Positions 23,106 to 57,836 of a stretch of 64,000 nucleotides of DNA are shown piece after piece; position 1 is the first letter of the stretch, and the number at the start of each line of letters is the position of its first letter. The notes beneath the pieces are model-generated. The model saw only the letters and a list, made by a program, of their open reading frames with translations, did not search any database and had not been told where the DNA came from. This stretch comes from Parcubacteria group bacterium. GTDB taxonomy: Bacteria > Patescibacteriota > Minisyncoccia > Moranbacterales > UBA2206. A program made the translations under genes and the position numbers. The stretch lies in assembly GCA_041659505.1 (NCBI GenBank), contig JBAZYF010000001.1, positions 321,719 through 385,718 of the forward strand, given 5' to 3'.

Positions 23106-23107
23106 GT

Positions 23108-40931: not shown

Positions 40932-40955
40932 TTTCAGAAATACTAAATTTATATC

Positions 40956-40997
40956 CCCTTCTCCCTCCGGGAGAAGGTGGCCGAAGGCCGGATGAGG
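40956..40997. repeat. GC-rich double-hairpin (REP-like) element
   Basis: CCCTTCTCC-CTCCGG-GAGAAGGTGGCCGAAGGCCGGATGAGG is nearly identical to 57006-57049. Related hairpins are at 41085-41110, 41140-41175, 49166-49225 and 56964-56987. Confidence 0.6.
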
Positions 40998-41203
40998 GAA
41001 AGGGCTATATATTAAGAAAAGACTAGCTTTGTTTAGAATTATTCTTAACCTATTGCCCTTGCCCTCACCTGTCACGAGTACGTGACATCCTCTCCCGGAG
41101 GGAGAAGAGGAATTGAAAAAACTATTCCATAGCCTCACTGTCCTACGGACATCCCTGCCTACCGGCAGGCAGGCTCTCCCGAAGGGAGAGGAGGGTATTG
41201 CAA

Positions 41204-41776
41204 TTATTTTCTCCCGATATTCTTCAGCGCCATCCCCACTCTCTTCCCAATATCTTTCACATCCCCCGACACACTCTTCAGCGCTTCCCGCGCTTCATAA
41301 GCGCTATAGCCCATCGCCATCAGCGCCTCAATCGATTGCGAATCGCCAGTCGTTTCGTCTTGATCACCCTGCGAAATTGTTCCCACTTTATTTTTCAACT
41401 CCAAAATCACCCGGCCGGCGGTTTTTTTGCCCACGCCGGAAACTTTCGTGAGAATGGAAGTGTCTTCATTCACAATCGCCGCCTTGATCGTTTTCGGGCT
41501 GGCAATCGCCAGGATGCTCGAAGCGGCTTTAGGTCCGATACCGGAAATAGAAATCAAAAGCTCAAACATCTCCTGCTCTTCTTCAGTCAAAAATCCAAAC
41601 AGCGCCAGCACATCTTCACGCACATGAGTATAAATAAACAGCTCGACACTCTCCGTCCCGGCAATTTTCGCCAAAGAATAACTATTCATCTGGACCTTAT
41701 ACCCAATATCATGCACATCTAAAATGACATAGTTTTCCCTGATAGTATCAATTTTTCCCTTAATTTTTCCAATCAT
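41204..41776 (-). CDS. ruvA: Holliday junction branch-migration protein RuvA
   Basis: MIGKIKGKI...YVILDVHDIGYKV N-terminal OB domain and the HhH pair GIGPKAASSILA / VSGVGKKTAGRVILEL. Confidence 0.9.
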   Translation of the reverse strand: MIGKIKGKIDTIRENYVILDVHDIGYKVQMNSYSLAKIAGTESVELFIYTHVREDVLALFGFLTEEEQEMFELLISISGIGPKAASSILAIASPKTIKAAIVNEDTSILTKVSGVGKKTAGRVILELKNKVGTISQGDQDETTGDSQSIEALMAMGYSAYEAREALKSVSGDVKDIGKRVGMALKNIGRK

Positions 41777-42005
41777 AATTATTCCGTGTCATCCTCGCCC
41801 CCGTTTTCACGAGGATAAACTCCGGCGGGGATCCAGTCTCACAGCCCTTGATTTATACACAAAACTATCACACTTACAGAGATAGTGAAGAAAGTTTTAT
41901 ACTCTACATTATATACGACCCAGCCAAAAATTGCACGCCCAAAAGAAAAAGGGAAGCACAGTTATATGCACTTCCCTTTTCAAGTATCTATTATTTAAGT
42001 ATCTA

Positions 42006-42809
42006 TTATTTTTTGTGAGCTACAAAAATGATCTGCTCACTATTTTCATCGTATGGACTACCCCACCAATTGCCATAAGCCTCACAAGACACAAACCCGG
42101 CGTCAAGACACCAATCGACAAACTCATCTTTTTCAAAAACTCTGACCGAATAATCCTTTCTCACTAGTGTTCCGTCGGGCCTGATAATAATCCAGGCTCC
42201 GTCCATTCTTTTGGTTATGGCACTATACCGATCAATGATTTGTAGTTGATTTCCCGATATAAGTTTCCTAATCTCGTTTTCCTTGTACTTCCCTGCCCGC
42301 ACTCGCGACAGATTGACGTCGGTTTCCATTAAAAATTTTCCACCGGGCTTCAGTGCCCTAAAAAAATTTCGTAAAACTTCCCGATTGTCACTGTCAGTCT
42401 CGAAGAAACCAAAGGAGTAACACATATTGATTATGTGATCAAACTGGTTGAAATAAGCGATATCTAGCATACTTTCTTTCCTGAAATCAACTGCAATTCC
42501 CAGCTCCCTTAAACGATCAATCGCATTTTTAAGATGCGTCGCATTAATATCAATACCGACAATAGCATAGCCCCTCTTTGCCAATTCAATGCTGTGCCTG
42601 CCATAGCCACAAGGAATATCCAAGATTCTTTCGCCACCGGTCATGCCCAACAATCTGACAACACCATCAACATCTTCCTCTGTTCGTTCTACAATCGTTC
42701 TATTTTTATCTTCCAAATATCCTTCCTTGGAATTATCCCCCTCCATGTAAAATTCACCAAAAAAATCATACTTTTCATCCCACCAATCAGAATCGATTTC
42801 ATTTTTCAT
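42006..42809 (-). CDS. Class I SAM-dependent methyltransferase
   Basis: Motif I ILDIPCGYGRHSIELA. Confidence 0.65.
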   Translation of the reverse strand: MKNEIDSDWWDEKYDFFGEFYMEGDNSKEGYLEDKNRTIVERTEEDVDGVVRLLGMTGGERILDIPCGYGRHSIELAKRGYAIVGIDINATHLKNAIDRLRELGIAVDFRKESMLDIAYFNQFDHIINMCYSFGFFETDSDNREVLRNFFRALKPGGKFLMETDVNLSRVRAGKYKENEIRKLISGNQLQIIDRYSAITKRMDGAWIIIRPDGTLVRKDYSVRVFEKDEFVDWCLDAGFVSCEAYGNWWGSPYDENSEQIIFVAHKK

Positions 42810-42997
42810 AATACCCTCCTCCTTGATTTAATTGATAAATAACTCTGTTAAATATTCAACTAGCCTATCTAATTTTCAATTTAACTGCTTATTGTATCCC
42901 AAAAACCCAAATCTGTCACTACTTAGGTCAAGAGATATGTGAATATTGACAATATATGGCTTATTTGATATACTAATACTAACGACCCTTTCTTCGT

Positions 42998-43139
42998 CAC
43001 GCCATAGTCACAAGTACTCTTGGGACGAAGGCGGACTGAGTCACGCCATAGCTTAAGTAAAGGCGGACTGCGCCACGCCGTAGCCCAAGCGAAGGCGGAC
43101 TGCGCCACGCCGTAGCCCAAGCGAAGACGGGTATAGTCC
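42998..43139. repeat. Tandem array of 32-bp repeats (two identical and two or three degenerate units) upstream of a TrmB gene
   Basis: AGGCGGACTGCGCCACGCCGTAGCCCAAGCGA occurs twice, preceded by AGGCGGACTGAGTCACGCCATAGCTTAAGTAA. The motif GGCGGACTGCGYCA also occurs at 5231 and 12806. Confidence 0.7.
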
Positions 43140-43156
43140 AATAAACCACCAAATTC

Positions 43157-43891
43157 ATGCTCCAAGACAACCTCCAAAAAATCGGCCTAGACAAGAAAGA
43201 AAGCCAAGTCTATCTGGCGCTTTTGGAGTTGGGTAGCGCCAATATCGGGCAGATTGCCAAAAAATCCGCCGTTAAACGGACAACGGTCTATGATATTTTA
43301 GATTCCTTGAAAGAAAAAGGCCTATTAGGTCAGACTAAAAGCAAGAATCACACGCTCTTTTTCGCCGAAAACCCAGAAAAATTGGAACGACAGATCGAAG
43401 AAAAGAAAAAAATTATCCTAAAAGTGATGCCAGAACTTCTTTCCATCGCCAACCGATTGGAGAAAAAGCCTAAAATCAAGTTTTTTGAAGGAAAAGCTGG
43501 CATCAAAGAAGTTTATGAGGACACTCTGAAATATCCCGACCAAGAAATTTTAGCTTGGGCAACGGACGACGCGTTGAAATATTTCGACGCGCAGTATCTG
43601 TGGCATGAATATGTCCCCGCTCGGATAAAAAATCGCATTTGGGAGCGCACAATTGCGCCAAACAATGAACAAATGCGCCACGTCAAATCCTATGACCAAA
43701 AACACCTGCGCCAGATCCGCTTCGCGCCGGAAAACGAAACGCTCTTTGAAGTAGAAATTAATCTCTACGGCAAAAAACTGATCGGCATCATGGCCTTCGA
43801 AGAACAGATCGGCCTCATCATTGAAAGCGAAAAAATCTTCAACACTTTGAAAAGTATTTTTGAAATCAATTGGAAGGCGTTGGAGAAATAA
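43157..43891 (+). CDS. TrmB-family transcriptional regulator
   Basis: N-terminal wHTH LQKIGLDKKESQVYLALLELGSANIGQIAKKS plus the TrmB C-terminal domain. Confidence 0.7.
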   Translation: MLQDNLQKIGLDKKESQVYLALLELGSANIGQIAKKSAVKRTTVYDILDSLKEKGLLGQTKSKNHTLFFAENPEKLERQIEEKKKIILKVMPELLSIANRLEKKPKIKFFEGKAGIKEVYEDTLKYPDQEILAWATDDALKYFDAQYLWHEYVPARIKNRIWERTIAPNNEQMRHVKSYDQKHLRQIRFAPENETLFEVEINLYGKKLIGIMAFEEQIGLIIESEKIFNTLKSIFEINWKALEK

Positions 43892-43947
43892 CCCAAAACG
43901 TGCATTTTTTGTTATGCTTGGTATAATAAAACGTAATAAAAAAATTT

Positions 43948-44463
43948 ATGATAAAAAATGAAAAGCAACCTGCTATACCCAATGAAAGGATAATGAGCCA
44001 GATCTATTTCATCCGCGGGGAAAAAGTGATGTTTGACCGCGATTTAGCCGAGCTTTATGGCGTGGAAACTAGATTGCTTAAACAGGCAGTAAAAAGAAAC
44101 TTGGATCGATTTCCCGCAGACTTCATGTTTCAACTAAATAAAAAAGAACTTGAAATTTGGAGATCACAAATTGTGATGTCCAAAAGTGATAAGCAAGGAT
44201 TAAGATGGCTGCCAATTGTTTTCACCGAACAAGGCGTAGCGATGCTTTCGGCAGTTTTGAAAAGTAAGCGCGCCGTAGCAGTTAGCATCCAAATAGTACG
44301 GACATTCGTGAAGTTGCGAGAAATTCTTTCTACCCACAAGCAACTACGCGAAAAAGTTGAGCTGATGGAGGATAAGTATGACAAAAGTTTTAAGGTAGTT
44401 TTTCAAATGATTGCACAACTGATGAAGGAAGACGCGGAGCCGAAGAAACGTATTGGATTTTAA
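43948..44463 (+). CDS. ORF6N-domain (antirepressor-like) DNA-binding protein
   Basis: IRGEKVMFDRDLAELYGVETRLLKQAVKRNLDRFPADFMFQL...LPIVFTEQGVAMLSAVLKSKRAVAVSIQIVRTFVKLRE matches the ORF6N pattern. Confidence 0.65.
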   Translation: MIKNEKQPAIPNERIMSQIYFIRGEKVMFDRDLAELYGVETRLLKQAVKRNLDRFPADFMFQLNKKELEIWRSQIVMSKSDKQGLRWLPIVFTEQGVAMLSAVLKSKRAVAVSIQIVRTFVKLREILSTHKQLREKVELMEDKYDKSFKVVFQMIAQLMKEDAEPKKRIGF

Positions 44464-44480
44464 CTATTTTCAAAAATTTT

Positions 44481-47216
44481 ATGGAAACCCCCAAACCCGA
44501 AAAACTCATCCTTATCGACGGTAATGCTATCATCCATCGATCATACCACGCTCTCCCGCCGTTCACCACCAAAAATGGCGAGCTAGTGAATGCAGTTTAT
44601 GGATTTGCCTCAACTTTGCTTTCCATCATTGCCAAGTTCGAGCCGAAATATATCATAGCCACTTTTGATTTGGCCGGACCGACTTTTCGCCACATTGAAT
44701 ATGCGGAGTATAAGGCGACGCGCGCGAAAGCGGATGATGCGCTTTATGCGCAGATTCCTCGCGTCAAGGAAGTGACCGAGGCGTTTGGTATTCCGATTTA
44801 TGCTGTCGCCGGCTTTGAAGCGGATGATGTGATTGGAACACTCGCAAAACAAGCGAGGGAAAACTCTCGGGAGCTAGAGACTATTATCGTCACGGGCGAT
44901 ATGGACACATTGCAATTAGTCGATGATGTGACTTCGGTGTACACGATGCGCCGGGGACTGACTGACGCCGTGCTCTATGGCAAGGCGGAAATTTTTGAAC
45001 GCTTCTCACTGGCACCGGAACAGTTGATTGACTACAAAGGTCTGCGCGGAGATCCGTCAGATAATATTCCGGGCGTAAAAGGCATCGGCGAAAAAACCGC
45101 TATCGAACTTTTGAAGACTTACGGCACATTGGAAAATGTTTATGCCCATTTGGAAGACATCAAAAAACCACTGCGGGAGAAACTGGAGAAAGATAAAATG
45201 ATTGCGATTCAGAGCAAAGGACTGGCCACAATTTCCCGAGTTGTCCCGGTCACGCTAGATCTGGAAAAAGCGGTAACAAAAGATTTTGACAAAGAAAAAT
45301 TGGTCGCGCTTTTCACGGAACTTAATTTTCATAGTCTCAAAAAAAGACTATTGGGAAATACGACTGACAGCAAATCAAATAAAGCTGACCAGAAAAATGC
45401 TCCGACGGAAAAATCAGAAGGTATTAAAGATTTTAAATTTGAAATAGCTGACCAGAAAAATTTTCCAGAACTGCTCGCGAATCTAAAGGAGCAAAAAGAA
45501 CTGGCTATCAAGCTTAGAACTAATGGCGTCTCTGTGCACGCTAGCACGCTTTCTGGCATTGCCATTGGCTATAAGACTGGTCGCGCAATCTATTTCGATT
45601 TAGAGAATAAAGAAATTTTTTCGGAAATAAAAACACTCTTGGAAAATCCACAGACGGAAAAAATTTGTTTTGACTTGAAAAGTGATTGGGAGGTTTTGCA
45701 AAACGCCGGGGTAAATCTCGCCGGAAACTATTTCGATATTCTGCTTTCCAGCTATGTTCTTAGCCCGGGCCGGAAAATAACTTTGCCTGATCTCGTCGCG
45801 GAATTTTTACAAGAAGAAATGGCCGAAGAATCCAAAAAGGGCCAACTAGGCCTTGAGATTGAAAGTACCGAAGACATTGCCCAAAAAAATTGCGCCGTCG
45901 CCGACTATATTTTCAAACTGAAAAAAATCCAAAAAGAAGAAATCGAAAAAATCAGTGCGGAGCAAGTGAAATCTGGAAATTCTCCGGCGCACACGCTCAG
46001 TACGGTTTTTTGCGAACTGGAAATTCCCCTGGCTAAAGTTTTGGCACAAATGGAACTATCTGGCATCAAATTAGACACTATGATTTTTGCCGGCATTTCC
46101 GAAACGATCACGAAACGCATTGCGAAGCTCGAAGAAAATATCTATGCGCTTTCCGGCACAACTTTCAACATCGCCTCTCCCAAGCAACTCTCTGAGGTGC
46201 TGTTTGAAAAAATGCACTTGCCGGTCGGAAACATTAAAAAAGGTAAATTCGGCGTCATCTCAACGGCTTCGGCGGAACTGGAAAAATTGAAAGGTGAACA
46301 TAAGATCATTGAAAAAATCGAAGAATACCGCGAAATCACAAAACTGAAAAATACCTATCTCGACACCCTGCCAGAAATGGTCGACAAAAATTCCCGCCTC
46401 CATTCTACTTTCAACCAAGCCGTCACCGCCACCGGTCGCCTCTCATCCTCTGATCCCAATTTGCAAAACATTCCCACCCGCACCGATCTGGGACAACTTT
46501 TGCGCACGGCGTTTGTCGCTGAAACTGGTCACAAACTCGTCAGCGCCGATTATTCTCAAATTGATCTGCGCGTAGTCGCTCATGTTAGTAGTGACAAAAA
46601 AATGATCGAGCTGTTTCATAAAGACGAAGACATCCACCGTGCCACTGCGGCGGAAATCAACAACCTCACGCTCTCGCAAGTGACGGACAAAATCCGCCGC
46701 ACCGCCAAAGAGCTAAACTTTGGTGTGATTTATGGCATGGGCTCCTTCGGTTTTTCCGCCCGCGCCGGCATTTCACGCGATGATGCGAAAAGATTTATCG
46801 ATGCCTATTTTGAAAAATTCCAAGGGGTGGCGAAATATATGCAAGGGATTCGCGAATCCGCCAAAACCAACGGCTACGTCGAAACAGAAATCGGCCGCCG
46901 GAGATATATTCCAGAAATCAACTCATCCAATTTTCAGTTACAAAGCGCCGCCGAACGGATGGCGATCAATATGCCCATCCAAGGCCTCGCCTCAGACATC
47001 ATGAAAATCGCTATGCTCCACGTCACTAAAGAATTTGAAAATAATCCCGATGTCAAAATGCTTCTCCAAGTCCACGATGAAATTATTCTCGAAGTCAAAG
47101 AAGATCTGGCCGAAGAAGTAGCGCAAAAAATCAAAACGATTCTTGAAAAAGCCTACACTCTCAAAGTTCCACTCGTGGCGAACGTTGAGATTGGGGATAA
47201 TTGGGGAGAATTGTAG
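44481..47216 (+). CDS. polA: DNA polymerase I
   Basis: 5'-nuclease N-terminus (LILIDGNAIIHRSYHAL), polymerase motif A (DYSQIDLRV), motif B (RRTAKELNFGVIYG) and motif C (VHDEIILE). Confidence 0.9.
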   Translation: METPKPEKLILIDGNAIIHRSYHALPPFTTKNGELVNAVYGFASTLLSIIAKFEPKYIIATFDLAGPTFRHIEYAEYKATRAKADDALYAQIPRVKEVTEAFGIPIYAVAGFEADDVIGTLAKQARENSRELETIIVTGDMDTLQLVDDVTSVYTMRRGLTDAVLYGKAEIFERFSLAPEQLIDYKGLRGDPSDNIPGVKGIGEKTAIELLKTYGTLENVYAHLEDIKKPLREKLEKDKMIAIQSKGLATISRVVPVTLDLEKAVTKDFDKEKLVALFTELNFHSLKKRLLGNTTDSKSNKADQKNAPTEKSEGIKDFKFEIADQKNFPELLANLKEQKELAIKLRTNGVSVHASTLSGIAIGYKTGRAIYFDLENKEIFSEIKTLLENPQTEKICFDLKSDWEVLQNAGVNLAGNYFDILLSSYVLSPGRKITLPDLVAEFLQEEMAEESKKGQLGLEIESTEDIAQKNCAVADYIFKLKKIQKEEIEKISAEQVKSGNSPAHTLSTVFCELEIPLAKVLAQMELSGIKLDTMIFAGISETITKRIAKLEENIYALSGTTFNIASPKQLSEVLFEKMHLPVGNIKKGKFGVISTASAELEKLKGEHKIIEKIEEYREITKLKNTYLDTLPEMVDKNSRLHSTFNQAVTATGRLSSSDPNLQNIPTRTDLGQLLRTAFVAETGHKLVSADYSQIDLRVVAHVSSDKKMIELFHKDEDIHRATAAEINNLTLSQVTDKIRRTAKELNFGVIYGMGSFGFSARAGISRDDAKRFIDAYFEKFQGVAKYMQGIRESAKTNGYVETEIGRRRYIPEINSSNFQLQSAAERMAINMPIQGLASDIMKIAMLHVTKEFENNPDVKMLLQVHDEIILEVKEDLAEEVAQKIKTILEKAYTLKVPLVANVEIGDNWGEL

Positions 47217-47345
47217 AAATATAGTAGGTTAGCTTTTTTCACAACTCAAGAAAATAGCCAGGAAAATATTGCCCGAAGAAAAAATAATTGATATCATTCC
47301 AGCATCAATTGAAGAATTTCATAAATTGATCAACGGGATTAAAAA

Positions 47346-49019: not shown

Positions 49020-49321
49020 AGAGCTAAGAAAATTTGAAAATAATCCGGAAGTGGAAATCGGAAATAATTGAGGGGAATTGTAAAACTAGCTAACAACTAT
49101 TTTATTATGCTTCATTGTTATCAATATTGTTAATAATCATGAATCATTAAACACGAATTGCTTATCCCCTCTCCTTAACAAGGAGATTTTACCTTCAACG
49201 ACTTGGAGGGAAAAGGGTGAGGCGAATTTAACTTTACTAATTAAAAACATAGAAAAAAGGAGTTGCAATGATTGGCAACTCCTTTTGATTATACCTGCAG
49301 AAAAAATCTTTTCCCCCTTTC

Positions 49322-50068: not shown

Positions 50069-50269
50069 ATTATTTATTCCTTTTTTTAATGTGCAAATTT
50101 AATTTTCCCTCCATCTCAAGCCTCAAAACAATTTTGAAACTTGGGAAAAGGAGGCGAGCATAGTGCGATGATACGCGTGCTCGCCTTTCCTACAATAAAG
50201 AACGATTTAGGAGAATTAAGAGATATCTTCCTCAAGGATTATCTCTTGTTTTACCGGCTTAGATCTGTT

Positions 50270-50778
50270 TTATTGATGTGGAACTTCCAAATGCCAGTTG
50301 CCATTTTTAAAGCCATCATATTTTTGGTTAAACTTATCACCAAAAATCAGGGGCTTAATACTTTCCCAGAATTTCAAAAGTCTGGTCAAGCCCGATGAAT
50401 CATATTCAGCATAGCGATTTATTTGTATCATCATAAATAAATTTTCACGCTCTACACCATAATAAACCCAGAGTCTAACGCACCCGTCTTTCGTAGTGGT
50501 CGACATGCAATGGAAAGAACCATGGTACTTGTCAAAGTCATCTGAAGAAATCCATCCAAGCTTGCAAAAAACATTCTTTGCTTCTTCCTTCCTGTCATTG
50601 TCTTTCCATAGATTAATCAAGTTGTTACAGAATTCAATGCACTCCTCATCGGAATTCAACATTTGAAATGCTTTGCTGATAGGAATGCGACTTCTATTAA
50701 TAGTATCGTGAAAATAGAAAATAGCCACTTTCTCCCGATCATGAAAAGCTTTTTCGCCGATTATGATAGTATTCAATA
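50270..50778 (-). CDS. Hypothetical protein (169 aa)
   Basis: An ATG at 50778 (MSDILNTIIIGEK...) is preceded by AGGAGA, so I chose it over the track's 243-aa call. Confidence 0.4.
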
Positions 50779-51124
50779 TATCGCTCATTACTATTCTCCT
50801 TGTTTTAAAGGTACATTTTTTTGTCTCCCCGAGAATCCATTTCTCAGCTTGACTCCGGAGTATAGCACGTCTATTGTTTATTGTCAACAGTAATCTTGCG
50901 ACAATATTGACATAAGTTTTAAACTGATGTATAATTAAGCCAGGATAAGGGATTTTTGGAATTTGGTCAGTTTGAGATTGACAGAAATCGATAGTGGACA
51001 TTTTGCGGACAGTCTCTACGAATTACGAATTTGTACGAATATACGAATGTAAAAATAACCCCCATGTGACTAGTTTTAGTTATATTTTAGTCAAACTTTA
51101 ATATAACTTGACTATAGTTTTAGT

Positions 51125-52375
51125 TTGATATATACTATAGTCATAATTGTTAACTTATTCATTTTTATGCTCTACAAAAGAAAAATTAACGATGAAATCC
51201 TAAAATTCCTTGATTTAGAGGAAATAATTGTTTTGCATGGCGCCCGGCAAGTTGGTAAGACGCATATTTTACTGTGGCTGGAAGATTATCTGAAAAGCAA
51301 AGGAGAGGATGTATATTACATAGATTTGGAAGATTCGCGGTATAAAAAGCTACTAGACCTAGGAACCGCTGAATTTATCACCCACCTGAAGGAGGAGGGA
51401 CATTTCCCGAAAGAGAGCAAAAAAACTTTTGTATTTATTGATGAAATTCAGTATCTGGACAATCCTTCTGAGTTTTTGAAACTGATTGCCGATCATCACA
51501 AAAATATCAAGTTGATCGTGTCGGGATCTTCCAGCTTTGAGATAAAAAGCAAATTCAAAGATTCGCTTGTCGGACGAACGATTAATTTTGAAATTTTTAA
51601 CCTATCTTTTGAGGAATACTTAATGTTCAAAAAATACACCTATACTCCAAGTAAAAAAACAACAGCGCTAAAGCAAGCCGAATTAAGAGCTCTCTACAGA
51701 GAATTCGTTTTGTTTGGCGGCTATCCAAAAGTGGCACTGATTGACAATATTGAATTAAAAGAAAAGCGCTTGCAGCAAATCATTGATACCTACATCAGAA
51801 AAGATATCAAAGAATTAGCCAACATCGATAATATTGAAAGTTTCAACAAATTATTGGAGGTTTTGGCATCGCAAAGCGGTCAATTGGTTAATAGCAAAGA
51901 ATTAGCCAACACTTGCAAGCTATCCGCAATAACGATTGAAAAATATTTATTCATTCTCGAACAAACCTACATAATAAAATTAGTCAGGCCCTATAATAAA
52001 AACATTCGCAGCGAACTTTCTAAGATGCCAAAAGTATTCTTTTATGATTCTGGATTGATGCAGATGCTTTGGCTCAAAAGTTTGCAAAAAGAGCTTATTG
52101 GCAATGTTTTTGAAACTAGTATTTTCAGTGAACTCGTGAAAAAATATGGGAGAGATAAGGTTTATTATTGGCGGACAAAAGATAAAAAAGAAATTGATTT
52201 TATCGCTATTCCCAAAAATGAAATTGTTCCCATCGAAGTTAAAATTAATTTTAACAAAGCTAATCTATCGGCCATAAACTATTTTTTAGAAAATTATAAA
52301 CTGAGCAAATATCAAATAATTGGTCTTGATGGATATGAACAAAGAAAGGGCTGGGTTTATCCCTGGGAGATTTAA
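51125..52375 (+). CDS. AAA+ ATPase of the DUF4143 / AAA_14 type (COG1373-like)
   Basis: Walker A HGARQVGKTH, Walker B FVFIDEIQ and a C-terminal DUF4143-like block. The true start is probably internal. Confidence 0.6.
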   Translation: MIYTIVIIVNLFIFMLYKRKINDEILKFLDLEEIIVLHGARQVGKTHILLWLEDYLKSKGEDVYYIDLEDSRYKKLLDLGTAEFITHLKEEGHFPKESKKTFVFIDEIQYLDNPSEFLKLIADHHKNIKLIVSGSSSFEIKSKFKDSLVGRTINFEIFNLSFEEYLMFKKYTYTPSKKTTALKQAELRALYREFVLFGGYPKVALIDNIELKEKRLQQIIDTYIRKDIKELANIDNIESFNKLLEVLASQSGQLVNSKELANTCKLSAITIEKYLFILEQTYIIKLVRPYNKNIRSELSKMPKVFFYDSGLMQMLWLKSLQKELIGNVFETSIFSELVKKYGRDKVYYWRTKDKKEIDFIAIPKNEIVPIEVKINFNKANLSAINYFLENYKLSKYQIIGLDGYEQRKGWVYPWEI

Positions 52376-52393
52376 AATAAATTACACCTTTTT

Positions 52394-53140
52394 ATGGAAA
52401 ACGAACTAAAACAACTTGGGCTCACACCCAATGAAATCAAGATCTATAACGCGCTGTTGGAATTGGGCGAAAATACGGTGGGGCCACTGATCAAAAAGCT
52501 GGGGATGCATCGCCAGGTGGCTTATGACGCGCTGGAAGGATTAGAAAGTAAAAAGATGATTTTGAAAACTACCAAAAATAACCGCTTGGTTTTTCGGGTG
52601 GCTAATCCGCAAAATATTCTCGACAACATCAAGCAACAAGAAATCATCGCTTCTAGTTTGGTCGAAGAAATCAATTCCAAACTAACCGGTCAACAAAAAG
52701 GTCAAGAGATTCGAGTTTATGAAGGCGCCAAGGCTTATCGAGAGTTAATTAAAAGAAAAGATGATTTGATGCCGGAGAATTCGCAATACCTAGTTGTCAC
52801 TGGCGCGGCGATGAAATTCAAAGAAATAATGCTCAAATCCGGTGTGTTTGAAAGAAGTAACCGCATCCGCATGAAAAAAAATATCAAGACAAAATTGATT
52901 TTTGGCAACATCAGCTCCGCGGAAGCCCAGCTTGTCAAACGCGCCAACTCGGAATATCGCTTTTTGCCGGAAGGCTATTCTTCGCCAACATCATTTGACA
53001 TTTGGCACGACTCCATCACTCTCAATTCCTATGGCTCGGGAAACGGCGATGATATGTTTTGCATCGAAATCAAAAACGAAGACTTCCGCCAGTCTTATCT
53101 GACCTATTTCGATCTGCTTTGGAAGATGGCGAAAAAATAA
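52394..53140 (+). CDS. TrmB-family transcriptional regulator
   Basis: N-terminal LKQLGLTPNEIKIYNALLELGENTVGPLIKK wHTH. Confidence 0.7.
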   Translation: MENELKQLGLTPNEIKIYNALLELGENTVGPLIKKLGMHRQVAYDALEGLESKKMILKTTKNNRLVFRVANPQNILDNIKQQEIIASSLVEEINSKLTGQQKGQEIRVYEGAKAYRELIKRKDDLMPENSQYLVVTGAAMKFKEIMLKSGVFERSNRIRMKKNIKTKLIFGNISSAEAQLVKRANSEYRFLPEGYSSPTSFDIWHDSITLNSYGSGNGDDMFCIEIKNEDFRQSYLTYFDLLWKMAKK

Positions 53141-53148
53141 TTGAAATG

Positions 53149-53991
53149 CTATTTATTCAAAAGCCTCTTATTCTCCGGATTTTTTATAAAATTCTTTTTA
53201 GAAACCAGCGATCTGCCCAACTTAGTTTCCAATTCTTTTCTGGCATTGCCAGCAATTCTTCCGCCAATCTTTGCATCATCTTTCAGCTTTTTCACGCCTT
53301 TGGAATTTTCATTTTTATGAATTTCCGTTGTCGACCGCTCGCCAAGCATCGTAAAAATCAGCTCGAAATCATCCATATGATCACGCAAGTTTTCGCGCTT
53401 CAAGCCTTTTAGTTTTTTGTATTCAACCGGCGTCACGCCAAAAGTCGCTTTAGAAATTTCCGCTGTCAAAATTTCATAATCTCGATTTTCTCTTGCGCCT
53501 CGCTTTTGCCACTCATCCGTCAGTTCTTCGCGAATTACAATCCCGCGCATGCGCTTTTCGATCCAATCCTCGGAATAGCCCTTGAGCTTATAGAGTGCTC
53601 TGGTTCTTTTGGCTGCCAATTCCGGATCTTCGATTTCCTGCACTCGCTCATAACCAACTTTCGCCAGCCAGCGCTTCAGAGGCTCGGCTTTGGGCGAAGG
53701 AATTGATTGAATAATGCGAAACATCCCTTCGGTGTTAGCGCAATCGGTTTCACGCATTTTTCCATCAGGAGCCAGCAATTTCAACTGTCTACAAATTGTA
53801 GATAGTTGAAACTCGGCCTCATCTTTAACTCTTGCCTTCATCGCAGTCCAATAAACACTTGGGCGATCGCTATCTGTAAGCGCATAAATTACATCCACAA
53901 CCGAAAACCACCATTCATTTTGATAGATGATTTTTCGAATTTCCTTGCCCTTGAAAACGGCAACTTTCGTGGAGAAAATATTTTTGTTCAT
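53149..53991 (-). CDS. BRO-N-domain protein, DinD (DNA-damage-inducible protein D)-like
   Basis: N-terminal FKGKEIRKIIYQNEWWFSVVDVIYAL resembles Bro-N/DinD. The overall architecture resembles DinD-type proteins. Confidence 0.5.
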   Translation of the reverse strand: MNKNIFSTKVAVFKGKEIRKIIYQNEWWFSVVDVIYALTDSDRPSVYWTAMKARVKDEAEFQLSTICRQLKLLAPDGKMRETDCANTEGMFRIIQSIPSPKAEPLKRWLAKVGYERVQEIEDPELAAKRTRALYKLKGYSEDWIEKRMRGIVIREELTDEWQKRGARENRDYEILTAEISKATFGVTPVEYKKLKGLKRENLRDHMDDFELIFTMLGERSTTEIHKNENSKGVKKLKDDAKIGGRIAGNARKELETKLGRSLVSKKNFIKNPENKRLLNK

Positions 53992-54077
53992 ATTTTTTTG
54001 TTTTAAAAAAATTATAGTGTTATTGTACCATTATAAATATCTTTTTGCAACTACTCCTTTTTTAGGCATAGAAAAAA

Positions 54078-54103
54078 GGGAATTGCTATGATAAGCAATT
54101 CCC
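54078..54103 (-). terminator. Terminator after the REC-fusion gene
   Basis: GGGAATTGC-TATGATAA-GCAATTCCC followed on the minus strand by TTTTTTCT. Related hairpins with an AATGAT loop are at 49258-49284 and 56222-56250. Confidence 0.55.
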
Positions 54104-54164
54104 CTTAAACCCTAAAACAAAGAACTAATGCGAGAGCAGCTCTGTTGCGCTGCTCTCCGAACCA

Positions 54165-55028
54165 TCATTCAAACATCGCTGAAAGCGGGAGCACTCCTAC
54201 GCCCCTTGCTTCCCATCTTTTTTCATACCGCCGAAGTTGTTCTTTATCGTCCTTCCCCTCTCCATTAGAGAGATATAAAACTGCCAAATAATAATCACTC
54301 GGACGGTTTTTGTTATATTTTTTTAGCCATATAGATATGGCATTATTTTCCCCTTCGAGACCTTTTCGACTTCCCTTTATGCGAATCCTTCGATCTGCAA
54401 CAAAAAGAAAGTCTCCTTCTTTCCTGACACTACCCCGAAGAGGAACATGCCAAGCCACCTCAAGAAAACTGGGAGGATCAATATCAACAGGATACAGGGA
54501 GACACAGAGTACTTCATGCTCTCCTTCTGAAACATCAACACGAAAATCTGGAGACTCACATGATTCAAATGCGCGTTCGAGCGCATCTACCCTTTCCGCT
54601 CTGCGCACCTGAGTTTGGTGATTCCTCTCGTCGATTAAACTTATCTCTGCGAGAGTGTCCTTTCGCACTCTCTCCCTCTCCAATTCCGAAACAGCAAGTG
54701 CGGCAACCAATACTTCCGCGGCTTCTTTTTTTAGCGCACTTTTCAGCGCACCTCTCCTTGCCAACTCGATATTGCAATCCGAATCGGACGAAGCGGCAAC
54801 GAAGAGGATGTTACGACTTTTCAAATAATCAGCGATTTCAATTGTGTTGCCACCGATTATGCAAAAGTCCAGAATCGCTCCAGCAATTTTTTCAGTCGTT
54901 AGTGTTTGAGATCTCCAATCAGCGACACTCTCAAGCTCAACGACTTCAAAACCATTGGAGTTCAGAACCTTTTGCCATCCATCCCGGATTGATTTTATAT
55001 CTTCTACTATCACTATTGTATTTTTCAT
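54165..55028 (-). CDS. Receiver-like (REC) domain fused to an uncharacterised C-terminal domain
   Basis: IVIVEDIKSIR...AILDFCI...ILFVAASSD is receiver-like. The C-terminal ~170 aa are unknown. Local GC content is visibly higher than in neighbouring genes. Confidence 0.45.
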   Translation of the reverse strand: MKNTIVIVEDIKSIRDGWQKVLNSNGFEVVELESVADWRSQTLTTEKIAGAILDFCIIGGNTIEIADYLKSRNILFVAASSDSDCNIELARRGALKSALKKEAAEVLVAALAVSELERERVRKDTLAEISLIDERNHQTQVRRAERVDALERAFESCESPDFRVDVSEGEHEVLCVSLYPVDIDPPSFLEVAWHVPLRGSVRKEGDFLFVADRRIRIKGSRKGLEGENNAISIWLKKYNKNRPSDYYLAVLYLSNGEGKDDKEQLRRYEKRWEARGVGVLPLSAMFE

Positions 55029-55080
55029 TTCTCTCTCCCTGCTCCATTTCTACCCCGCCGATGCAGACGGCAATTCATTG

Positions 55081-55305
55081 CTACCATCGTTTTATTCCAG
55101 CTACTGCAAGAATTGTCCCAAAAACACTCAATACAACTATTCCAGTAGCAGATAACATCCCCATACTTTGACATGATCTTCCGCCTTCAAATCCAAATTC
55201 CCAAATTAAGGCAAGAACCATGAGTGCCAATCCAACCAAAATCATCAAGAAACCTTTCTTTTTCATTTTCTTCTCCTTTTCACTCCTTCGTTTATTGCTA
55301 TACAT
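55081..55305 (-). CDS. Small two-TM membrane protein
   Basis: Lys-rich N-terminus and two hydrophobic helices. Sits directly upstream of the REC-fusion gene. Confidence 0.35.
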   Translation of the reverse strand: MYSNKRRSEKEKKMKKKGFLMILVGLALMVLALIWEFGFEGGRSCQSMGMLSATGIVVLSVFGTILAVAGIKRW

Positions 55306-55406
55306 ATTCGATTTTAAAATAACTCTCTAATTCAGCTTAACGAGAAAGTATAGCACCAAAATACTATTTTGTCAATATATTTTGATGATAATATAATGAT
55401 ATTGAC

Positions 55407-56195
55407 TTGGCTATAATAAAGGTGTATAACATAAGCATGTCAAATAATCTTGATAAAAATTTATTATCAAATCTCCAAGCGCTAGGCCTGTCTGAAAAAG
55501 AAGCGGTTGTTTATGTCGATCTTTTGAAAAAAGCCCGGCCAGTCGGCAGTTCCAAGATAGTGACTAGCACCGGACTTCACGGGCAATATGTCTATAATTC
55601 GCTCTATGCACTAGAAGAAAAGGGGCTGGTCAAGCACAGTATCGTGAATGGTCGCAAGAAATTTGAATCCAATCCACCGGCACGTATCAACAACTTAATT
55701 GAAGAAAAACGGCTAGTGGCAAAAAAGACACTAGAACAACTAAGTGACATCGCTGTCCGCCCAATAGGGCAAGAATTCGAAGTGTATCAAGGCGAAACCG
55801 CCTACATCCAAAGGCAGTTCGATACCTTGGAAATTATGCCTGAAGGCGAAGAAATGGTAATTATTTCCACCGATTGGGGCGAGTTGTTCACTGAGAAGCG
55901 GACGGATTTTCTTGATGCCTATGAAAAACGGCGCAATGAAAAAAAAATTTCTATTCGTTTCATTCTAAATGAAGGGCTACGCAAAGTCGCCAAGCGATCA
56001 GACGAGACGCGCCTCCGGACTCAGTACCGCTTCCTACCGGATCATCACAGCTATGGCGGAATTTGCGTCTTCAATGATGCGGTAGATTTCTTCCTGAAAG
56101 GTGACCCAATTACTGTTTTTTCTTTCAAAAACCAAAAAACTACCGCCGGTTATCGCAATTTTTTTGAAGTATTGTGGGGAATGGGGAAAGAATAG
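55407..56195 (+). CDS. TrmB-family transcriptional regulator
   Basis: LQALGLSEKEAVVYVDLLKKARPVGSSKI wHTH; the third paralogue in the window. Confidence 0.65.
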   Translation: MAIIKVYNISMSNNLDKNLLSNLQALGLSEKEAVVYVDLLKKARPVGSSKIVTSTGLHGQYVYNSLYALEEKGLVKHSIVNGRKKFESNPPARINNLIEEKRLVAKKTLEQLSDIAVRPIGQEFEVYQGETAYIQRQFDTLEIMPEGEEMVIISTDWGELFTEKRTDFLDAYEKRRNEKKISIRFILNEGLRKVAKRSDETRLRTQYRFLPDHHSYGGICVFNDAVDFFLKGDPITVFSFKNQKTTAGYRNFFEVLWGMGKE

Positions 56196-56264
56196 ACAAA
56201 GAATTTATACATAGAAAAAAGGGCACGGCCACAATAGGCAGTTCCCTTTTTTTATTTTTTTTGA

Positions 56265-56570
56265 TCATATGCTTTTTTTCCTTAGTTTTTCGACCAATGC
56301 ATCTGATACAACATTAGCCAAGATTGTCATTGCGTGCTCAATGGCGGTGCGCGTCAAGGTGAAATTTAATAGAGTCAAGAGCGATTCTATCGCCAAGGCA
56401 AGCGTTTCATCCTTGACCCCCATAGTATCAATTGAGAAAAAAGCAACAAATTCTCTTTTTTGATTTTCAAAGAACAATTTTGCATCTTCCTCATTTTTGA
56501 TACCCGCAATTTGCACCGTGAGCAGACGATCTGCCCTATTTTTCAAAACAACAAAATTATGTTTTCTCAT
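56265..56570 (-). CDS. Hypothetical protein (101 aa)
   Basis: ORF with a plausible terminator downstream; no motif recognised. Confidence 0.3.
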   Translation of the reverse strand: MRKHNFVVLKNRADRLLTVQIAGIKNEEDAKLFFENQKREFVAFFSIDTMGVKDETLALAIESLLTLLNFTLTRTAIEHAMTILANVVSDALVEKLRKKSI

Positions 56571-56691
56571 GATTGCTCCTCCTTTTTTTTGGTTGTTGTT
56601 TTTAAAATTAGATTTGGCTACAAAAATCAGCCTGATGCAAAAAAATCTTTTTTATGCTAGTCTAGAAAAGCTAAATTTTGATTGATAAAGT

Positions 56692-57633
56692 ATGCCAGAA
56701 CTGCCAGAAGTTGAGACAATTACAACAGATTTAAACCAAAAAGTCAAGGGATTGATTATTACAAAATTTTGGTCAGATTTTCCGTCGGCCATAAAAGGCA
56801 CGACGCTTTTGCAGTTTCAACGCGAGATGAAAAACAAAAAAATCCTTTCCGCCCAGCGGGTGGGGAAAAATATATTCCTCCATCTTTCTGGCGGGAAATC
56901 GCTGCATATTCATTTGCGGATGACGGGACATTTGCTTGTGAAATTAAATCCACCTCACCCTAGCCCTCTCCTTAGTAAGGAGAGGAGACAAAAATACAAA
57001 AAAAGCCCTTCTCCTTACCAAGGAGAAGGTGGCCGTAGGCCGGATGAGGTGGATTTTTTCAACGATAAGGTCAATCAATATATTCACCACATTTGGTATT
57101 TAAATAAAAACAAGACATTGGAATTTTCTGATTTGCGAAAGTTTGCAACGATGCGACTTCTGGAGACAAATAGTATTAAAAAATATTTGGCGGAAAAAAA
57201 GATTGGTATTGATGCGATGAGTGAACAGTTTACGCTGACAAAATTCAATGAACTGCTTGACGCTAAACCAAAAATGCTCATTGGCATCTTCCTCCTTGAT
57301 CAAAGTATCATTTCCGGCATTGGAAACATCTATCGCAGTGAGATTCTTTTTGCCTCCGGAGTTTTGCCAGAACGCAAAAATGAAAGTCTGGAAAAAGACG
57401 AGCGCAAAAAAATCTTTCTGGCCACAAAAAAAATCCTAAAACTGGCCATCAAAATGCGCGGAACATCCGACAGTGATTATCGCGACTCAGATGGTGCGCC
57501 GGGACATTTTCAAGAAATGCTAAAAGTCTATCGTCGAGATAAATTGCCATGTCCCGCAAAATGCGGCGGACTAATTTTGCGCAAAAAAATGGCACAAAGA
57601 AGTGTGTTCTTTTGTGCCAAATGCCAGAAATAA
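56692..57633 (+). CDS. mutM: Formamidopyrimidine-DNA glycosylase (Fpg/MutM), with an in-frame repeat-derived insertion
   Basis: MPELPEVETI N-terminus with catalytic P2/E3 and the C-terminal zinc finger CPAKCGG...FFCAKCQ. The ~35-aa segment NPPHPSPLLSKERRQKYKKSPSPYQGEGGRRPDEVDFF is encoded by the GC-rich double-hairpin repeat. Confidence 0.8.
   Translation: MPELPEVETITTDLNQKVKGLIITKFWSDFPSAIKGTTLLQFQREMKNKKILSAQRVGKNIFLHLSGGKSLHIHLRMTGHLLVKLNPPHPSPLLSKERRQKYKKSPSPYQGEGGRRPDEVDFFNDKVNQYIHHIWYLNKNKTLEFSDLRKFATMRLLETNSIKKYLAEKKIGIDAMSEQFTLTKFNELLDAKPKMLIGIFLLDQSIISGIGNIYRSEILFASGVLPERKNESLEKDERKKIFLATKKILKLAIKMRGTSDSDYRDSDGAPGHFQEMLKVYRRDKLPCPAKCGGLILRKKMAQRSVFFCAKCQK
57006..57049. repeat. GC-rich double-hairpin (REP-like) element inside the fpg coding sequence
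   Basis: CCCTTCTCCTTACCAAGGAGAAGGTGGCCGTAGGCCGGATGAGG. It is translated in frame as part of Fpg. Confidence 0.6.
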
Positions 57634-57646: not shown

Positions 57647-57817
57647 GTGTCATTCCCGCGAAGGCGGGAATCCAGGTTCCACTAGTTTTAAACTCTGAAA
57701 AATCGAGCCACAGGTCTGACAAGCTCTCGGTTTCAGAAAGTCTTGCATTTTAACAATTTGTTTTTACTTTATTTTTAACCTGAGGTGCCTGGATTCCCGC
57801 CTTCGCGGGAATGACAC
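57647..57817. repeat. Terminal-inverted-repeat element, family C, copy 2
   Basis: 171 bp with 30-bp perfect terminal inverted repeats, in a convergent intergenic region. Confidence 0.65.
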
Positions 57818-57836
57818 GGTTCTTGTTTATATAAAA

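What the first reader, a model, noticed from the sequence alone, without database searches (positions are those of the whole stretch)
40956..57062. GC-rich double-hairpin repeats scattered in intergenic DNA, one copy translated in frame inside fpg and another extending the FemAB ORF
The element CCCTTCTCC-N6-8-GGAGAAGGTGGCCG-A/T-AGGCCGGATGAGG occurs at 40956-40997 and 57006-57049. Related CCTCTCC...GGAGAGG hairpins are at 41085-41175, 49166-49225 and 56964-56987. In fpg the repeat contributes about 35 in-frame residues (NPPHPSPLLSKERRQKYKKSPSPYQGEGGRRPDEVDFF) between conserved Fpg blocks without breaking the frame. That is an unusual case of a REP-like element tolerated inside an essential repair enzyme. 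Upstream of femAB the same element keeps an ORF open for 69 extra codons.
Basis: seen in the sequence. Interest (0 to 1): 0.55.

Follow-up and report, generated by a model that had tools for sequence, protein, structure and literature searches.

The report
Triplex-motif DNA repeats inside fpg
A GC-rich repeat of a known, unexplained kind (a BoxC-type "intrastrand triplex motif") sits in frame in a floppy surface loop of the DNA-repair gene fpg of a Moranbacteria genome, and near-identical copies occur in many bacterial phyla, sometimes also inside genes.

Summary
GGAGAAGGTGGCCGWAGGCCGGATGAGG occurs at 40970-40997 and 57022-57049, with none expected by chance. Related, partly decayed units lie at 41062-41195, 49166-49222 and 56953-56985.

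The elements are not classical REPs. Each unit reads Y (CCTTCTCC), loop, R (GGAGAAGG), loop, RH (GGATGAGG). RH is the mirror of R and gives only G*G, A*A and T*A triads. That is the class II intrastrand triplex motif described as BoxC/PIT/TM_ECO (PMC4666352). The left unit in fpg is 85% identical to an E. coli intergenic copy. The right unit is a variant with a covarying mini-hairpin in loop 2.

In fpg, a 111-nt inverted doublet encodes residues N86-D121. It lies in a beta-hairpin loop inside the N-terminal domain and is predicted disordered. Relatives at 85-87% identity have an empty site. About 45% of CPR (Candidate Phyla Radiation) Fpg genes sampled carry some insert in this loop.

The FemAB "extension" is an ORF artefact, because homologues start at M70.

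The same 28-nt core occurs across many phyla with no linked transposase, and lies in frame in FolC, MurG, an ABC exporter and other genes. How it spreads is unknown. Verdict: a new variant and context of a known kind, of moderate interest.

The parts
56946..57056 (+). Inverted (tail-out) doublet of two triplex-motif units inside fpg. It is 111 nt long and is translated as residues N86-D121.
   Evidence: Closing stem AAATCCACCTCA/TGAGGTGGATTT. RNA fold -56 kcal/mol, z = -8.7; DNA fold z = -8.7. In frame. Three of six frames are open over the 111 nt.
56953..56985 (-). Left unit, a class II triplex motif read on the minus strand: CCTCTCC-TTACTAA-GGAGAGGG-CTA-GGGTGAGG.
   Evidence: Perfect Y/R/RH in the strict scan. 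It is 85% identical over 41 nt to an E. coli intergenic copy upstream of flgH, CCCCTCTCCC-TCGA-GGGAGAGGG-CTA-GGGTGAGGGGG.
56986..57005 (+). A-rich spacer between the two units (encodes RQKYKKS).
   Evidence: Length and sequence vary among relatives carrying the doublet.
57006..57049 (+). Right unit 'U': Y CCCTTCTCC, loop TTACCAA, R GGAGAAGG, T, mini-hairpin GGCCGTAGGCC, RH GGATGAGG.
   Evidence: All eight triads are canonical for the purine motif (read directly from the sequence). L124 carries GGTCGAAGACC, which keeps the mini-hairpin pairing.
56692..57633 (+). fpg/mutM gene (313 aa) hosting the doublet.
   Evidence: Pfam Fapy_DNA_glyco, H2TH and zf-FPG. PDB Fpg hits at E = 1e-31. The AlphaFold2 model matches Fpg structures with TM-score 0.77-0.82 by target length. 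pLDDT is below 50 for residues 88-120.
40957..40998 (+). Intergenic U unit between ruvA and femAB. It is the first half of a tail-in doublet.
   Evidence: ruvA and femAB are identified.
41062..41111 (-). Inverted partner unit: CCCTCACC, hairpin TGTCACGAGTACGTGACA, TCCTCTCCC-GGA-GGGAGAAGAGGA.
   Evidence: Long hairpin across 40954-41111 (I7, 15, 24). L029 carries the same unit with compensatory changes, TGTCGCGAGTACGCGACA.
41133..41195 (-). Third unit, imperfect, with two nested small hairpins in loop 2 (TGTCCTACGGACA and CTGCCTACCGGCAGGCAG).
   Evidence: The CTGCC..GGCAG hairpin family also occurs in the Fpg loops of L123, L125 and L126.
49166..49222 (+). Decayed unit between convergent gene ends: CCCCTCTCC-TTAACAA-GGAGA, then an interruption, then GGAGGG-AAAA-GGGTGAGG.
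40932..41138 (-). Open frame upstream of femAB (69 codons from a GTG). It is not coding sequence.
   Evidence: The 150 best FemAB homologues begin aligning at query residues 59-89 or later, at or near their own N-termini in the full-length alignments.
39837..40931 (-). femAB gene from its probable true start, M70.
   Evidence: Pfam FemAB; alignment A2.

Best explanation
What it is. The repeats belong to the GC-rich 'intrastrand triplex motif' kind, known as BoxC, PIT or TM_ECO. Each unit has three parts on one strand:
- a pyrimidine arm Y (CCTTCTCC or CCCTCTCC)
- its Watson-Crick purine partner R (GGAGAAGG or GGAGAGGG)
- a third block RH (GGATGAGG or GGGTGAGG)

RH is the mirror image of R. When the strand is single, it can fold Y-R into a hairpin and lay RH antiparallel on R through G*G:C, A*A:T and T*A:T triads. 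This is a class II purine-motif triplex.

The commonest unit here ('U') carries a 4-bp mini-hairpin in the R-RH loop, where E. coli copies have 3 nt. Units occur alone or as inverted doublets.

In this genome. One doublet lies between ruvA and femAB. Another was copied or inserted into the A-rich DNA that encodes a hypervariable beta-hairpin loop of Fpg. The gene stays in frame, and the insert is most likely translated as a 36-residue peptide rich in Pro, Ser, Lys, Arg, Glu and Gly. That peptide is predicted disordered and leaves the glycosylase fold intact.

Shown:
- identity of the motif and the stem and triad covariation
- the empty site in close relatives
- DNA-level conservation exceeding that of the host gene
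- occurrence across phyla and in other genes
- absence of a linked mobility gene

Inferred:
- The insert is translated.
- Selection acts on single-stranded DNA structure.
- Spread is by a host-encoded or replication/recombination route (template switching, gene conversion) rather than a dedicated transposase.
- Only copies that land in permissive loops or linkers survive.
For: Motif identity
- Three perfect Y/R/RH units are found in the window and none in 100 shuffles.
- Of 341 Y-R hairpins outside the copies selected by my search pattern, 111 have a compatible RH within 34 nt 3'. Only 5 do in a control window 120 nt further on. RH covaries with R.
- The published TM_ECO pattern is CCCTCNCCC-N3-6-GGGNGAGGG-N3-GGGNGAGGG. 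That paper also reports inverted pairs, no transposase nearby and locus instability (PMC4666352).
- The left unit is directly similar to an E. coli copy.

Structure under constraint
- 129 of 132 copies have the Y arm.
- There are 32 different inner-stem extensions. 75 of 129 copies have at least 2 extra base pairs, against 14% in shuffles.
- The two variable positions of the mini-hairpin are complementary in all but 2 of 129 copies.
- Compensatory changes are seen in L029 and L124.

Insertion rather than ancient loop
- Sites are empty in P0010-12 (L180, L181).
- Filled and empty alleles interleave on the Fpg tree.
- The element is about 85-90% identical where the flanks are 60% identical.

Tolerated
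- pLDDT is below 50 only in the insert and a few short segments elsewhere, and the fold matches Fpg.

General phenomenon
- At least 120 genomic stretches from many phyla carry the core.
- In-frame copies have Pfam domains on both sides in five genes.
- A copy lies inside FemAB of L068.
- No gene family recurs next to the element.
Against: - Triplex formation was not, and cannot be, tested here. For TM_ECO it was shown only for isolated single strands in vitro, not in vivo.
- U fails the strict TM_ECO pattern: its stems are 8 nt rather than 9, and loop 2 is 12 nt rather than 3.
- The RH block also pairs with the partner unit's tail in doublets, so part of its conservation could come from ordinary hairpin pairing.
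- Translation of the insert is inferred only from the intact frame.
- No insertion event with clean target-site signatures was captured.
Confidence: 0.8

Rival explanations
1. They are classical REP/REPIN elements: short palindromes in inverted doublets, spread by a single-copy RAYT (Y1/HUH) transposase.
For: - They are GC-rich imperfect palindromes.
- Inverted doublets with a spacer are common: 83 of 117 copies have a partner.
- About half lie within 80 nt after a stop codon.
- The doublets fold into long hairpins.
Against: - There is no GTAG or CGTC tag at the unit end, which marks the REP superfamilies (PMC3733652, abstract).
- No recurrent neighbouring gene appears in 120 loci.
- REPs are described as lineage-specific and vertically inherited (abstracts), whereas this 28-nt core is shared across phyla.
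- The mirror relation between R and RH is not a REP property.
Confidence: 0.12
2. The doublet is a MITE: a non-autonomous transposon with terminal inverted repeats, moved by a DDE transposase encoded elsewhere.
For: - It has 10-12-nt terminal inverted repeats, (A)ATCCACCTCA...TGAGGTGGAT(T), in both the window and L182.
- Its size is about 100 nt.
- It is present or absent among relatives.
- The genome hosts other MITE-like families.
Against: - No target-site duplication is recognisable.
- Units also occur solo and in the opposite (tail-in) arrangement, with unrelated spacers.
- No parent IS or transposase lies nearby.
- The 'TIR' is simply the RH block and its complement.
Confidence: 0.1
3. 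The segment is an old, functional part of Fpg in this lineage, kept by selection on the protein.
For: Several orthologues carry a similar peptide at the same place, including distant ones (P0013, P0030, P0032, P0042).
Against: - Sister sequences have empty sites.
- The same DNA occurs outside genes and in other phyla.
- Conservation is at the nucleotide level, including loop and third-codon positions, while the flanks are saturated.
- The same loop holds unrelated repeat families in other CPR Fpg genes.
- The segment is predicted disordered.
Confidence: 0.03
4. The units act mainly as RNA structures, for example as 3' stabilisers or terminators or as translational pause sites. Their conservation would then reflect RNA function.
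For: - They are enriched just after stop codons, with a rough 2:1 bias for the sense orientation.
- The predicted RNA folds are very stable.
- The stems covary.
Against: - Both orientations are common.
- There is no U-tract.
- No Rfam family matches.
- PIT/TM elements showed no promoter or terminator activity in E. coli, and purine-motif triplexes do not form in RNA (PMC4666352).
- The R/RH mirror rule has no RNA rationale.
Confidence: 0.15

Closest known systems
BoxC / PIT / TM_ECO intrastrand triplex motif repeats (Hoyne et al. 2000, as cited in Holder et al.; Holder et al. 2015, PMC4666352)
   Same: - The Y-R-RH order is the same, with RH the mirror of R.
- The blocks are nearly the same (CCCTCTCC / GGAGAGGG / GGGTGAGG).
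- The left unit has a 3-nt loop 2.
- Inverted pairs combine two unit types.
- The stems are extraordinarily conserved while the loops vary.
- No transposase lies nearby.
- Copies are present, absent or partly deleted among close relatives.
   Different: - Stems are 7-8 nt rather than 9, and loop 1 reaches 7 nt.
- The U unit has a 12-nt loop 2 folded into a covarying mini-hairpin. That lies outside the 1-6-nt loops searched by the paper's ITxF (intrastrand triplex finder) tool.
- TM_ECO was reported as always intergenic in E. coli MG1655 and was listed in 262 proteobacterial genomes. Here the units are found in Patescibacteria and many other phyla, and in frame inside genes.
Rickettsia palindromic elements (RPE; Ogata et al. 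2000) and other in-frame small repeats such as BRE and RUP/SPRITE (review PMC3184786)
   Same: These are palindromic repeats of about 100 nt inserted in frame into protein genes. They are tolerated because they land in loops and stay open in several frames.
   Different: - The sequence family is unrelated.
- RPEs are confined to Rickettsia, whereas this core is shared across phyla.
- Nothing comparable to the triplex-type mirror block was noted for RPEs in the review I read; I did not examine RPE sequences.
REP/BIME and REPIN-RAYT systems
   Same: They are short GC-rich palindromes, often as inverted doublets, and mostly lie between genes near 3' ends.
   Different: There is no GTAG/CGTC tag and no RAYT was seen. 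The elements are not lineage-specific, and they have an additional mirror (RH) block.
GC clusters and double-hairpin elements of fungal mitochondrial genomes (recalled from memory, not tested)
   Same: They are GC-rich hairpin modules scattered through an AT-rich genome, sometimes inside coding regions.
   Different: They occur in organelles rather than bacteria. No sequence relation was examined.

Membership tests
Intrastrand triplex motif (BoxC/PIT/TM_ECO) | Three blocks on one strand in the order pyrimidine arm, complementary purine arm, third block (class II) | tested here: met
   Units at 40957-40998(+), 57007-57049(+) and 56952-56985(-). None is found in 100 shuffles.
Intrastrand triplex motif (BoxC/PIT/TM_ECO) | Third block antiparallel to the purine arm, giving only G*G:C, A*A:T or T*A:T triads | tested here: met
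   All 7-8 triads are canonical in the three units. 111 of 341 independent hairpins meet the rule, against 5 of 341 in the control window, and RH covaries with R.
Intrastrand triplex motif (BoxC/PIT/TM_ECO) | Published TM_ECO pattern: 9-nt stems, loop 1 of 3-6 nt, loop 2 of 3 nt | tested here: not met
   The left unit has 7-8-nt stems, a loop 1 of 7 nt and a loop 2 of 3 nt. U has 8-nt stems, a loop 1 of 3-7 nt and a loop 2 of 12 nt with a mini-hairpin.
Intrastrand triplex motif (BoxC/PIT/TM_ECO) | Sequence similarity to E. coli copies | tested here: met
   The left unit is 85% identical over 41 nt to an intergenic copy upstream of flgH. The U consensus has no E. coli match.
Intrastrand triplex motif (BoxC/PIT/TM_ECO) | Intergenic location only (as reported for E. 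coli MG1655) | tested here: not met
   Copies lie in frame in fpg and in FolC, MurG, an ABC exporter, a Type ISP enzyme, a VapE-like protein and FemAB elsewhere.
Intrastrand triplex motif (BoxC/PIT/TM_ECO) | Forms a stable triplex as an isolated single strand | not testable with these tools
   This needs CD, NMR or UV melting. ViennaRNA does not model triplexes.
REP/REPIN-RAYT | GTAG or CGTC tetranucleotide at one end of the palindrome | tested here: not met
   No such conserved tag is seen in the 132 aligned copies.
REP/REPIN-RAYT | A RAYT (Y1 transposase) gene flanked by the repeats in the same genome | tested here: inconclusive
   No recurrent gene family was found in 120 loci of up to 8 kb. 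Whole genomes were not scanned.
MITE | Terminal inverted repeats plus target-site duplication | tested here: inconclusive
   A 10-12-nt inverted repeat is present. No duplication is recognisable, and the loop is too diverged for a clean comparison of filled and empty sites.
Rickettsia palindromic elements | In-frame insertion in protein genes with the fold preserved | tested here: met
   This holds as behaviour only. It is not the RPE sequence family, and the host is not Rickettsia.

The most novel reading that the evidence does not exclude
These triplex-type units could be a pan-bacterial form of selfish or self-propagating DNA that needs no transposase. They would copy themselves through structure-induced replication or repair events such as template switching or gene conversion. 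They would cross phyla, possibly on phages (99 viral-contig stretches carry the core). They would preferentially settle in permissive protein loops and linkers. In small CPR genomes they would then be a regular source of protein loop variation, with Fpg and FemAB as repeatedly hit examples.
Probability: 0.2. Interest if true: 0.75.

Novelty: new variant of a known kind. Interest (0 to 1): 0.45.

Why it matters
BoxC/PIT/TM motifs have been known for decades, yet no function or means of spread has been established for them. This locus adds three things:
- A variant with a structured second loop, which the published ITxF search settings (loops of 1-6 nt) would not pick up.
- Evidence that essentially the same 28-40-nt core is shared by distant phyla, including Patescibacteria, with no mobility gene nearby.
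- Clear cases where the motif sits in frame inside ordinary enzymes. These give natural filled and empty alleles with which to study how it arrives and decays.

For annotation, it explains a class of odd Pro/Ser/Gly/Arg-rich inserts and spurious N-terminal extensions in genomes assembled from metagenomes.

Tried and rejected
- **Rfam.** At gathering score the window gave only tRNAs. Permissive scans of both loci gave only sub-threshold hits, mostly to microRNA precursor hairpins, which reflects generic long hairpins.
- **Peptide search.** A search of the protein database with the insert peptide returned a single 59-aa hit. It was useless for a census of in-frame copies (one search was a parameter error).
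- **Literature string searches.** Searches for the DNA strings and for typical translated peptides found nothing. The RIME paper (PMC177356) is not held.
- **Neighbouring genes.** Clustering ORFs from 120 loci to find a linked transposase showed only common housekeeping families.
- **Plasmids, E. coli and phages.** PLSDB plasmid hits (90 records, mostly rhizobial) carry no annotation under the match. The U consensus has no match in E. coli and only 4 weak matches in GenBank phages.
- **Ideas dropped.** I considered a link to the 16S 3' end/anti-Shine-Dalgarno sequence, a sigma-54 promoter, integron attC sites and small ribozymes. Nothing beyond superficial resemblance supported any of them.
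- **Orientation analysis.** The orientation relative to genes is rough. ORF calling in high-GC loci is noisy, and my GC3 (third-codon GC content) filter missed known low-GC genes.
- **Clean insertion event.** Comparing L122 (right unit only) with the window gave no clean event. L122 looks like a decayed left unit.

Full report
**Source and context**

The window comes from a Candidatus Moranbacteria (Patescibacteria/CPR) genome assembled from a metagenome. The Fpg protein matches a database entry at 100% identity. Its closest named relatives are from Moranbacteria, and its longest contig is 656 kb. G+C is about 41%.

Genes around the finding:

| Gene | Coordinates | Strand |
|---|---|---|
| femAB | 39837-40931 | - |
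| ruvA | 41204-41776 | - |
| polA | 44481-47216 | + |
| TrmB-like regulator | 55407-56195 | + |
| fpg | 56692-57633 | + |
| DUF2207 | 58144-59967 | - |

Yes.
- The 28-nt string GGAGAAGGTGGCCGWAGGCCGGATGAGG occurs exactly twice, at 40970-40997 and 57022-57049. None of 100 dinucleotide shuffles contained it.
- Both copies are preceded by the complementary arm CCCTTCTCC.
- The fpg ORF reads through the element without a stop.

**Anatomy**

The fpg element is one 111-nt unit (56946-57056) closed by a 12-bp stem, AAATCCACCTCA/TGAGGTGGATTT. It folds far better than shuffled sequence, with z = -8.7 as RNA and as DNA. It contains two sub-units in inverted orientation.

- *Right unit ('U', 57006-57049).* It reads CCCTTCTCC, loop, GGAGAAGG, T, GGCCGTAGGCC, GGATGAGG.
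- *Left unit.* On the minus strand it reads CCTCTCC-TTACTAA-GGAGAGGG-CTA-GGGTGAGG.

In both units the last block is the mirror image of the purine arm. Laid antiparallel on that arm, it gives only G*G, A*A and T*A contacts.

That is the definition of a class II purine-motif intrastrand triplex. Holder et al. (NAR 2015, PMC4666352) describe this for the repeat once called BoxC or PIT, which they name TM_ECO. Their pattern is CCCTCNCCC-N3-6-GGGNGAGGG-N3-GGGNGAGGG.

A strict scan for such units finds three in the window and none in 100 shuffles.

The left unit is 85% identical over 41 nt to an E. coli intergenic copy upstream of flgH, CCCCTCTCCC-TCGA-GGGAGAGGG-CTA-GGGTGAGGGGG.

The intergenic cluster at 40957-41195 holds:
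- a U unit;
- after a 64-nt spacer, an inverted partner (41062-41111);
- a third, imperfect unit with extra nested hairpins.

**Is the triplex-type architecture more than a reading of three examples?**

I scanned one genome per species for the U core. These come from:
- Alpha-, Gamma- and Deltaproteobacteria, including isolates of Xanthomonas, Rhizobium, Legionella, Pseudomonas, Brevundimonas and Stenotrophomonas;
- Bacteroidota, Planctomycetota and Acidobacteriota;
- Melainabacteria, a Bifidobacteriaceae MAG, and three Patescibacteria.

Findings on the 132 copies:
- 129 have the pyrimidine arm.
- The inner part of the first stem differs among copies (32 versions) yet stays paired. 75 of 129 have at least two extra pairs, against 14% of shuffles.
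- The two variable positions of the mini-hairpin are complementary in all but two copies.

These copies were selected by my pattern, so I also tested hairpins the pattern did not select:
- Of 341 pyrimidine/purine hairpins in the same loci, 111 have a compatible third block within 34 nt downstream.
- Only 5 do in a control window 120 nt further on.
- The third block changes with the purine arm: GAGAGGG with GGGTGAG, GAGAAGG with GGATGAG, GGGGAAG with GATGGGG.

So the three-block design is a property of the family.

Partners: of 117 copies with full flanks, 51 have an inverted partner downstream and 32 have one upstream, as in fpg. About 36 are solo. This matches the inverted pairs of two unit types reported for E. 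coli.

**Is the Fpg segment an insertion or an old feature?**

The stretch between MTGHLLVK and YF.DKVNQY is a beta-hairpin loop inside the N-terminal domain. Pfam aligns residues 1-154 to a 117-position profile.

*Presence and absence among relatives*
- Relatives at 85-87% identity (P0010-P0012; DNA in L180, L181) have a short Lys-rich loop and no element.
- On a tree built without the loop, filled and empty alleles interleave. For example, P0006 is filled and its sister P0012 is empty.

*The same element in a distant Fpg*
- L182 (63% identical protein) carries the same doublet at the same place.
- There the flanking coding DNA is 60% identical, and 38% at third codon positions.
- The element is about 85-90% identical, loop sequence included.
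- Close relatives show the same excess: about 95% in the element against 68-72% at third positions in the flanks.

*Variants within the element*
- L122 has a decayed left unit.
- L123 and L124 have further small hairpins nested inside a unit.
- L124 has a compensatory GGTCGAAGACC mini-hairpin.

This fits the partial deletions that Holder et al. describe for palindromic TM pairs.

*Structure*
- The AlphaFold2 model places residues 88-120 at pLDDT below 50, between strands 79-85 and 130-137.
- The rest of the model matches solved Fpg structures with TM-score 0.77-0.82.
- Conserved Fpg sequence features are present: the N-terminal PELPEVE, the MTG motif corresponding to the Met77 studied in the MutM structures, the H2TH domain and the zinc finger.

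I conclude that this is a passenger insertion, probably translated. The conservation lies in the DNA, not in the protein.

**The loop is a hot spot**

Among 60 CPR Fpg genes, 27 have an expanded loop. The inserts come from several unrelated repeat families:
- triplex-type units, in the window, L121-124, L132, L140, and L134/L147/L178 (the last three with a different mini-hairpin);
- a CCTGCC...GGCAGG hairpin, in L125, L126 and L131;
- GGAAATT heptamer runs encoding ISNFQFPISN, in eight loci;
- others.

Whether this reflects a target preference for the A-rich loop DNA, or only tolerance of the loop, is not resolved.

**FemAB**

The ORF from the GTG at 41138 runs through the intergenic doublet for 69 codons. 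The 150 best homologues begin aligning at query residues 59-89 or later, at or near their own N-termini in the full-length alignments. So the gene starts at M70 (40931), or possibly M79, and the extension is an artefact.

FemAB is itself a target, though.
- In another Moranbacterium (L068) a U unit lies in frame after GRKTFEI.
- The window's own femAB carries three other repeat-derived in-frame segments (listed under things noticed).

**Beyond this genome**

In-frame U copies with Pfam domains on both sides occur in:
- a C39-peptidase ABC exporter (L012; linker between the membrane and ATPase domains);
- a BT4734/VapE-like protein (L018);
- FolC (L039; a whole doublet);
- a Type ISP restriction enzyme (L089);
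- MurG (L099; interdomain linker).

A single U unit is open in five of six frames. The fpg doublet is open in three of six.

No gene family recurs beside the element in 120 loci, in agreement with Holder et al..

Other distribution results:
- The U consensus is absent from E. coli.
- It is present in 90 plasmids, mostly rhizobial, in unannotated DNA.
- The U core pattern is present in 99 stretches of predicted viral contigs. Some of those may include host DNA.

Between the window and L029, the two units of the intergenic doublet are 90-95% identical with compensatory changes. The spacer and the flanks are unrelated. That points to constraint on, or homogenisation of, the units themselves.

**How it most likely works**

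*Shown.* This is a three-block, structure-constrained DNA repeat of the BoxC/TM kind. It is inserted in frame in a disordered loop and is polymorphic among relatives.

*Inferred.*
- The relevant structure forms in single-stranded DNA during replication, repair or transcription. According to the cited work, purine-motif triplexes do not form in RNA.
- Such structures stall polymerases and provoke slippage, template switching or gene conversion. That would both copy and erode the units.
- Intragenic copies persist only where the encoded peptide is harmless.

The means of spread between genomes is unknown.

**Verdict**

The element is a new variant (structured loop 2), in a new host range and a new context (in-frame, CPR), of a known but unexplained repeat kind. 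In-frame palindromic repeats as such have precedents: RPE, BRE and RUP. I rate the interest as moderate.

Noticed in passing
window 57647-57818; also 22903-23109 and 63639-63810: This is a MITE-like element of about 172 nt with inverted ends of about 30-46 nt, GTGTCATTCCCGCGAAGGCGGGAATCCAGG. The copy right after fpg fills the fpg-DUF1653 spacer, which is only 9 and 56 nt in relatives L180 and L181. The 22903 copy has an extra roughly 30-nt insert inside its left end.
   Followed up: partly
window 40683-40728 (inside femAB): A perfect 46-nt palindrome, AAAATCGGAGCCAGGCTCCGGAGCTCCGGAGCCTGGCTCCGATTTT, lies in frame in femAB and encodes KSEPGSGAPEPGSDF. This loop is variable among homologues.
   Followed up: partly
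window 39999-40042 (inside femAB); L125/L131 Fpg loop: A GCCTGCC...GGCAGG hairpin encoding PAYAKASAGEQ is in frame in femAB. The same hairpin family (PAYAKAPAGRQ) fills the Fpg loop of other Moranbacteria, and a short form (CTGCCTACCGGCAGGCAG) is nested at 41155-41172.
   Followed up: partly
window 40365-40432 and 17482-17549: GGAAATT heptamer runs are 75% alike between the two sites. The femAB copy is translated as ISNFQFPISNKFSNPNDQIK. Similar peptides fill the Fpg loop in at least eight other CPR loci (L141, L156, L158, L164, L165, L168, L174, L175).
   Followed up: partly
window 43026-43130 and 5207-5266: A 32-nt tandem repeat (three copies) built on GGCGGACTGCGCCACGCC lies between genes. 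A related single hairpin lies next to the tRNA-Ser/Arg/Ala cluster.
   Followed up: no
window 41934-41979, 49241-49286, 54061-54106, 56204-56249: Four hairpins downstream of genes share flanking sequence (CATAGAAAAAAGG...stem-loop...CCTTT). They look like intrinsic terminators with a common upstream motif.
   Followed up: no
window 7334-7474 and 10586-10722; 6740-6892 and 35375-35527: There are two more repeat families. One is an element of about 140 nt with 29-31-nt inverted ends, present in two copies. The other is a 153-nt direct repeat, 88% identical between its two copies.
   Followed up: no
L121 1982-2073: A close relative has a second triplex-motif doublet in the spacer just after fpg. 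Its U unit has the same loop 1 (TTGCCAA) as the U unit inside that genome's fpg, where the window and L122-L124 have TTACCAA. This hints at copying or gene conversion within one genome.
   Followed up: no
L073 and L021 (Patescibacteria loci): The ATP synthase alpha subunit (L073; GPASTRGDDRSSTRGGQ) and gamma subunit (L021; GNPARNAAHSAAGGD) appear to carry short repeat-like inserts.
   Followed up: no
contig of P0032 (no DNA available): A reverse-transcriptase gene (RVT_1) lies immediately upstream of, and overlaps, an fpg that carries the doublet.
   Followed up: no
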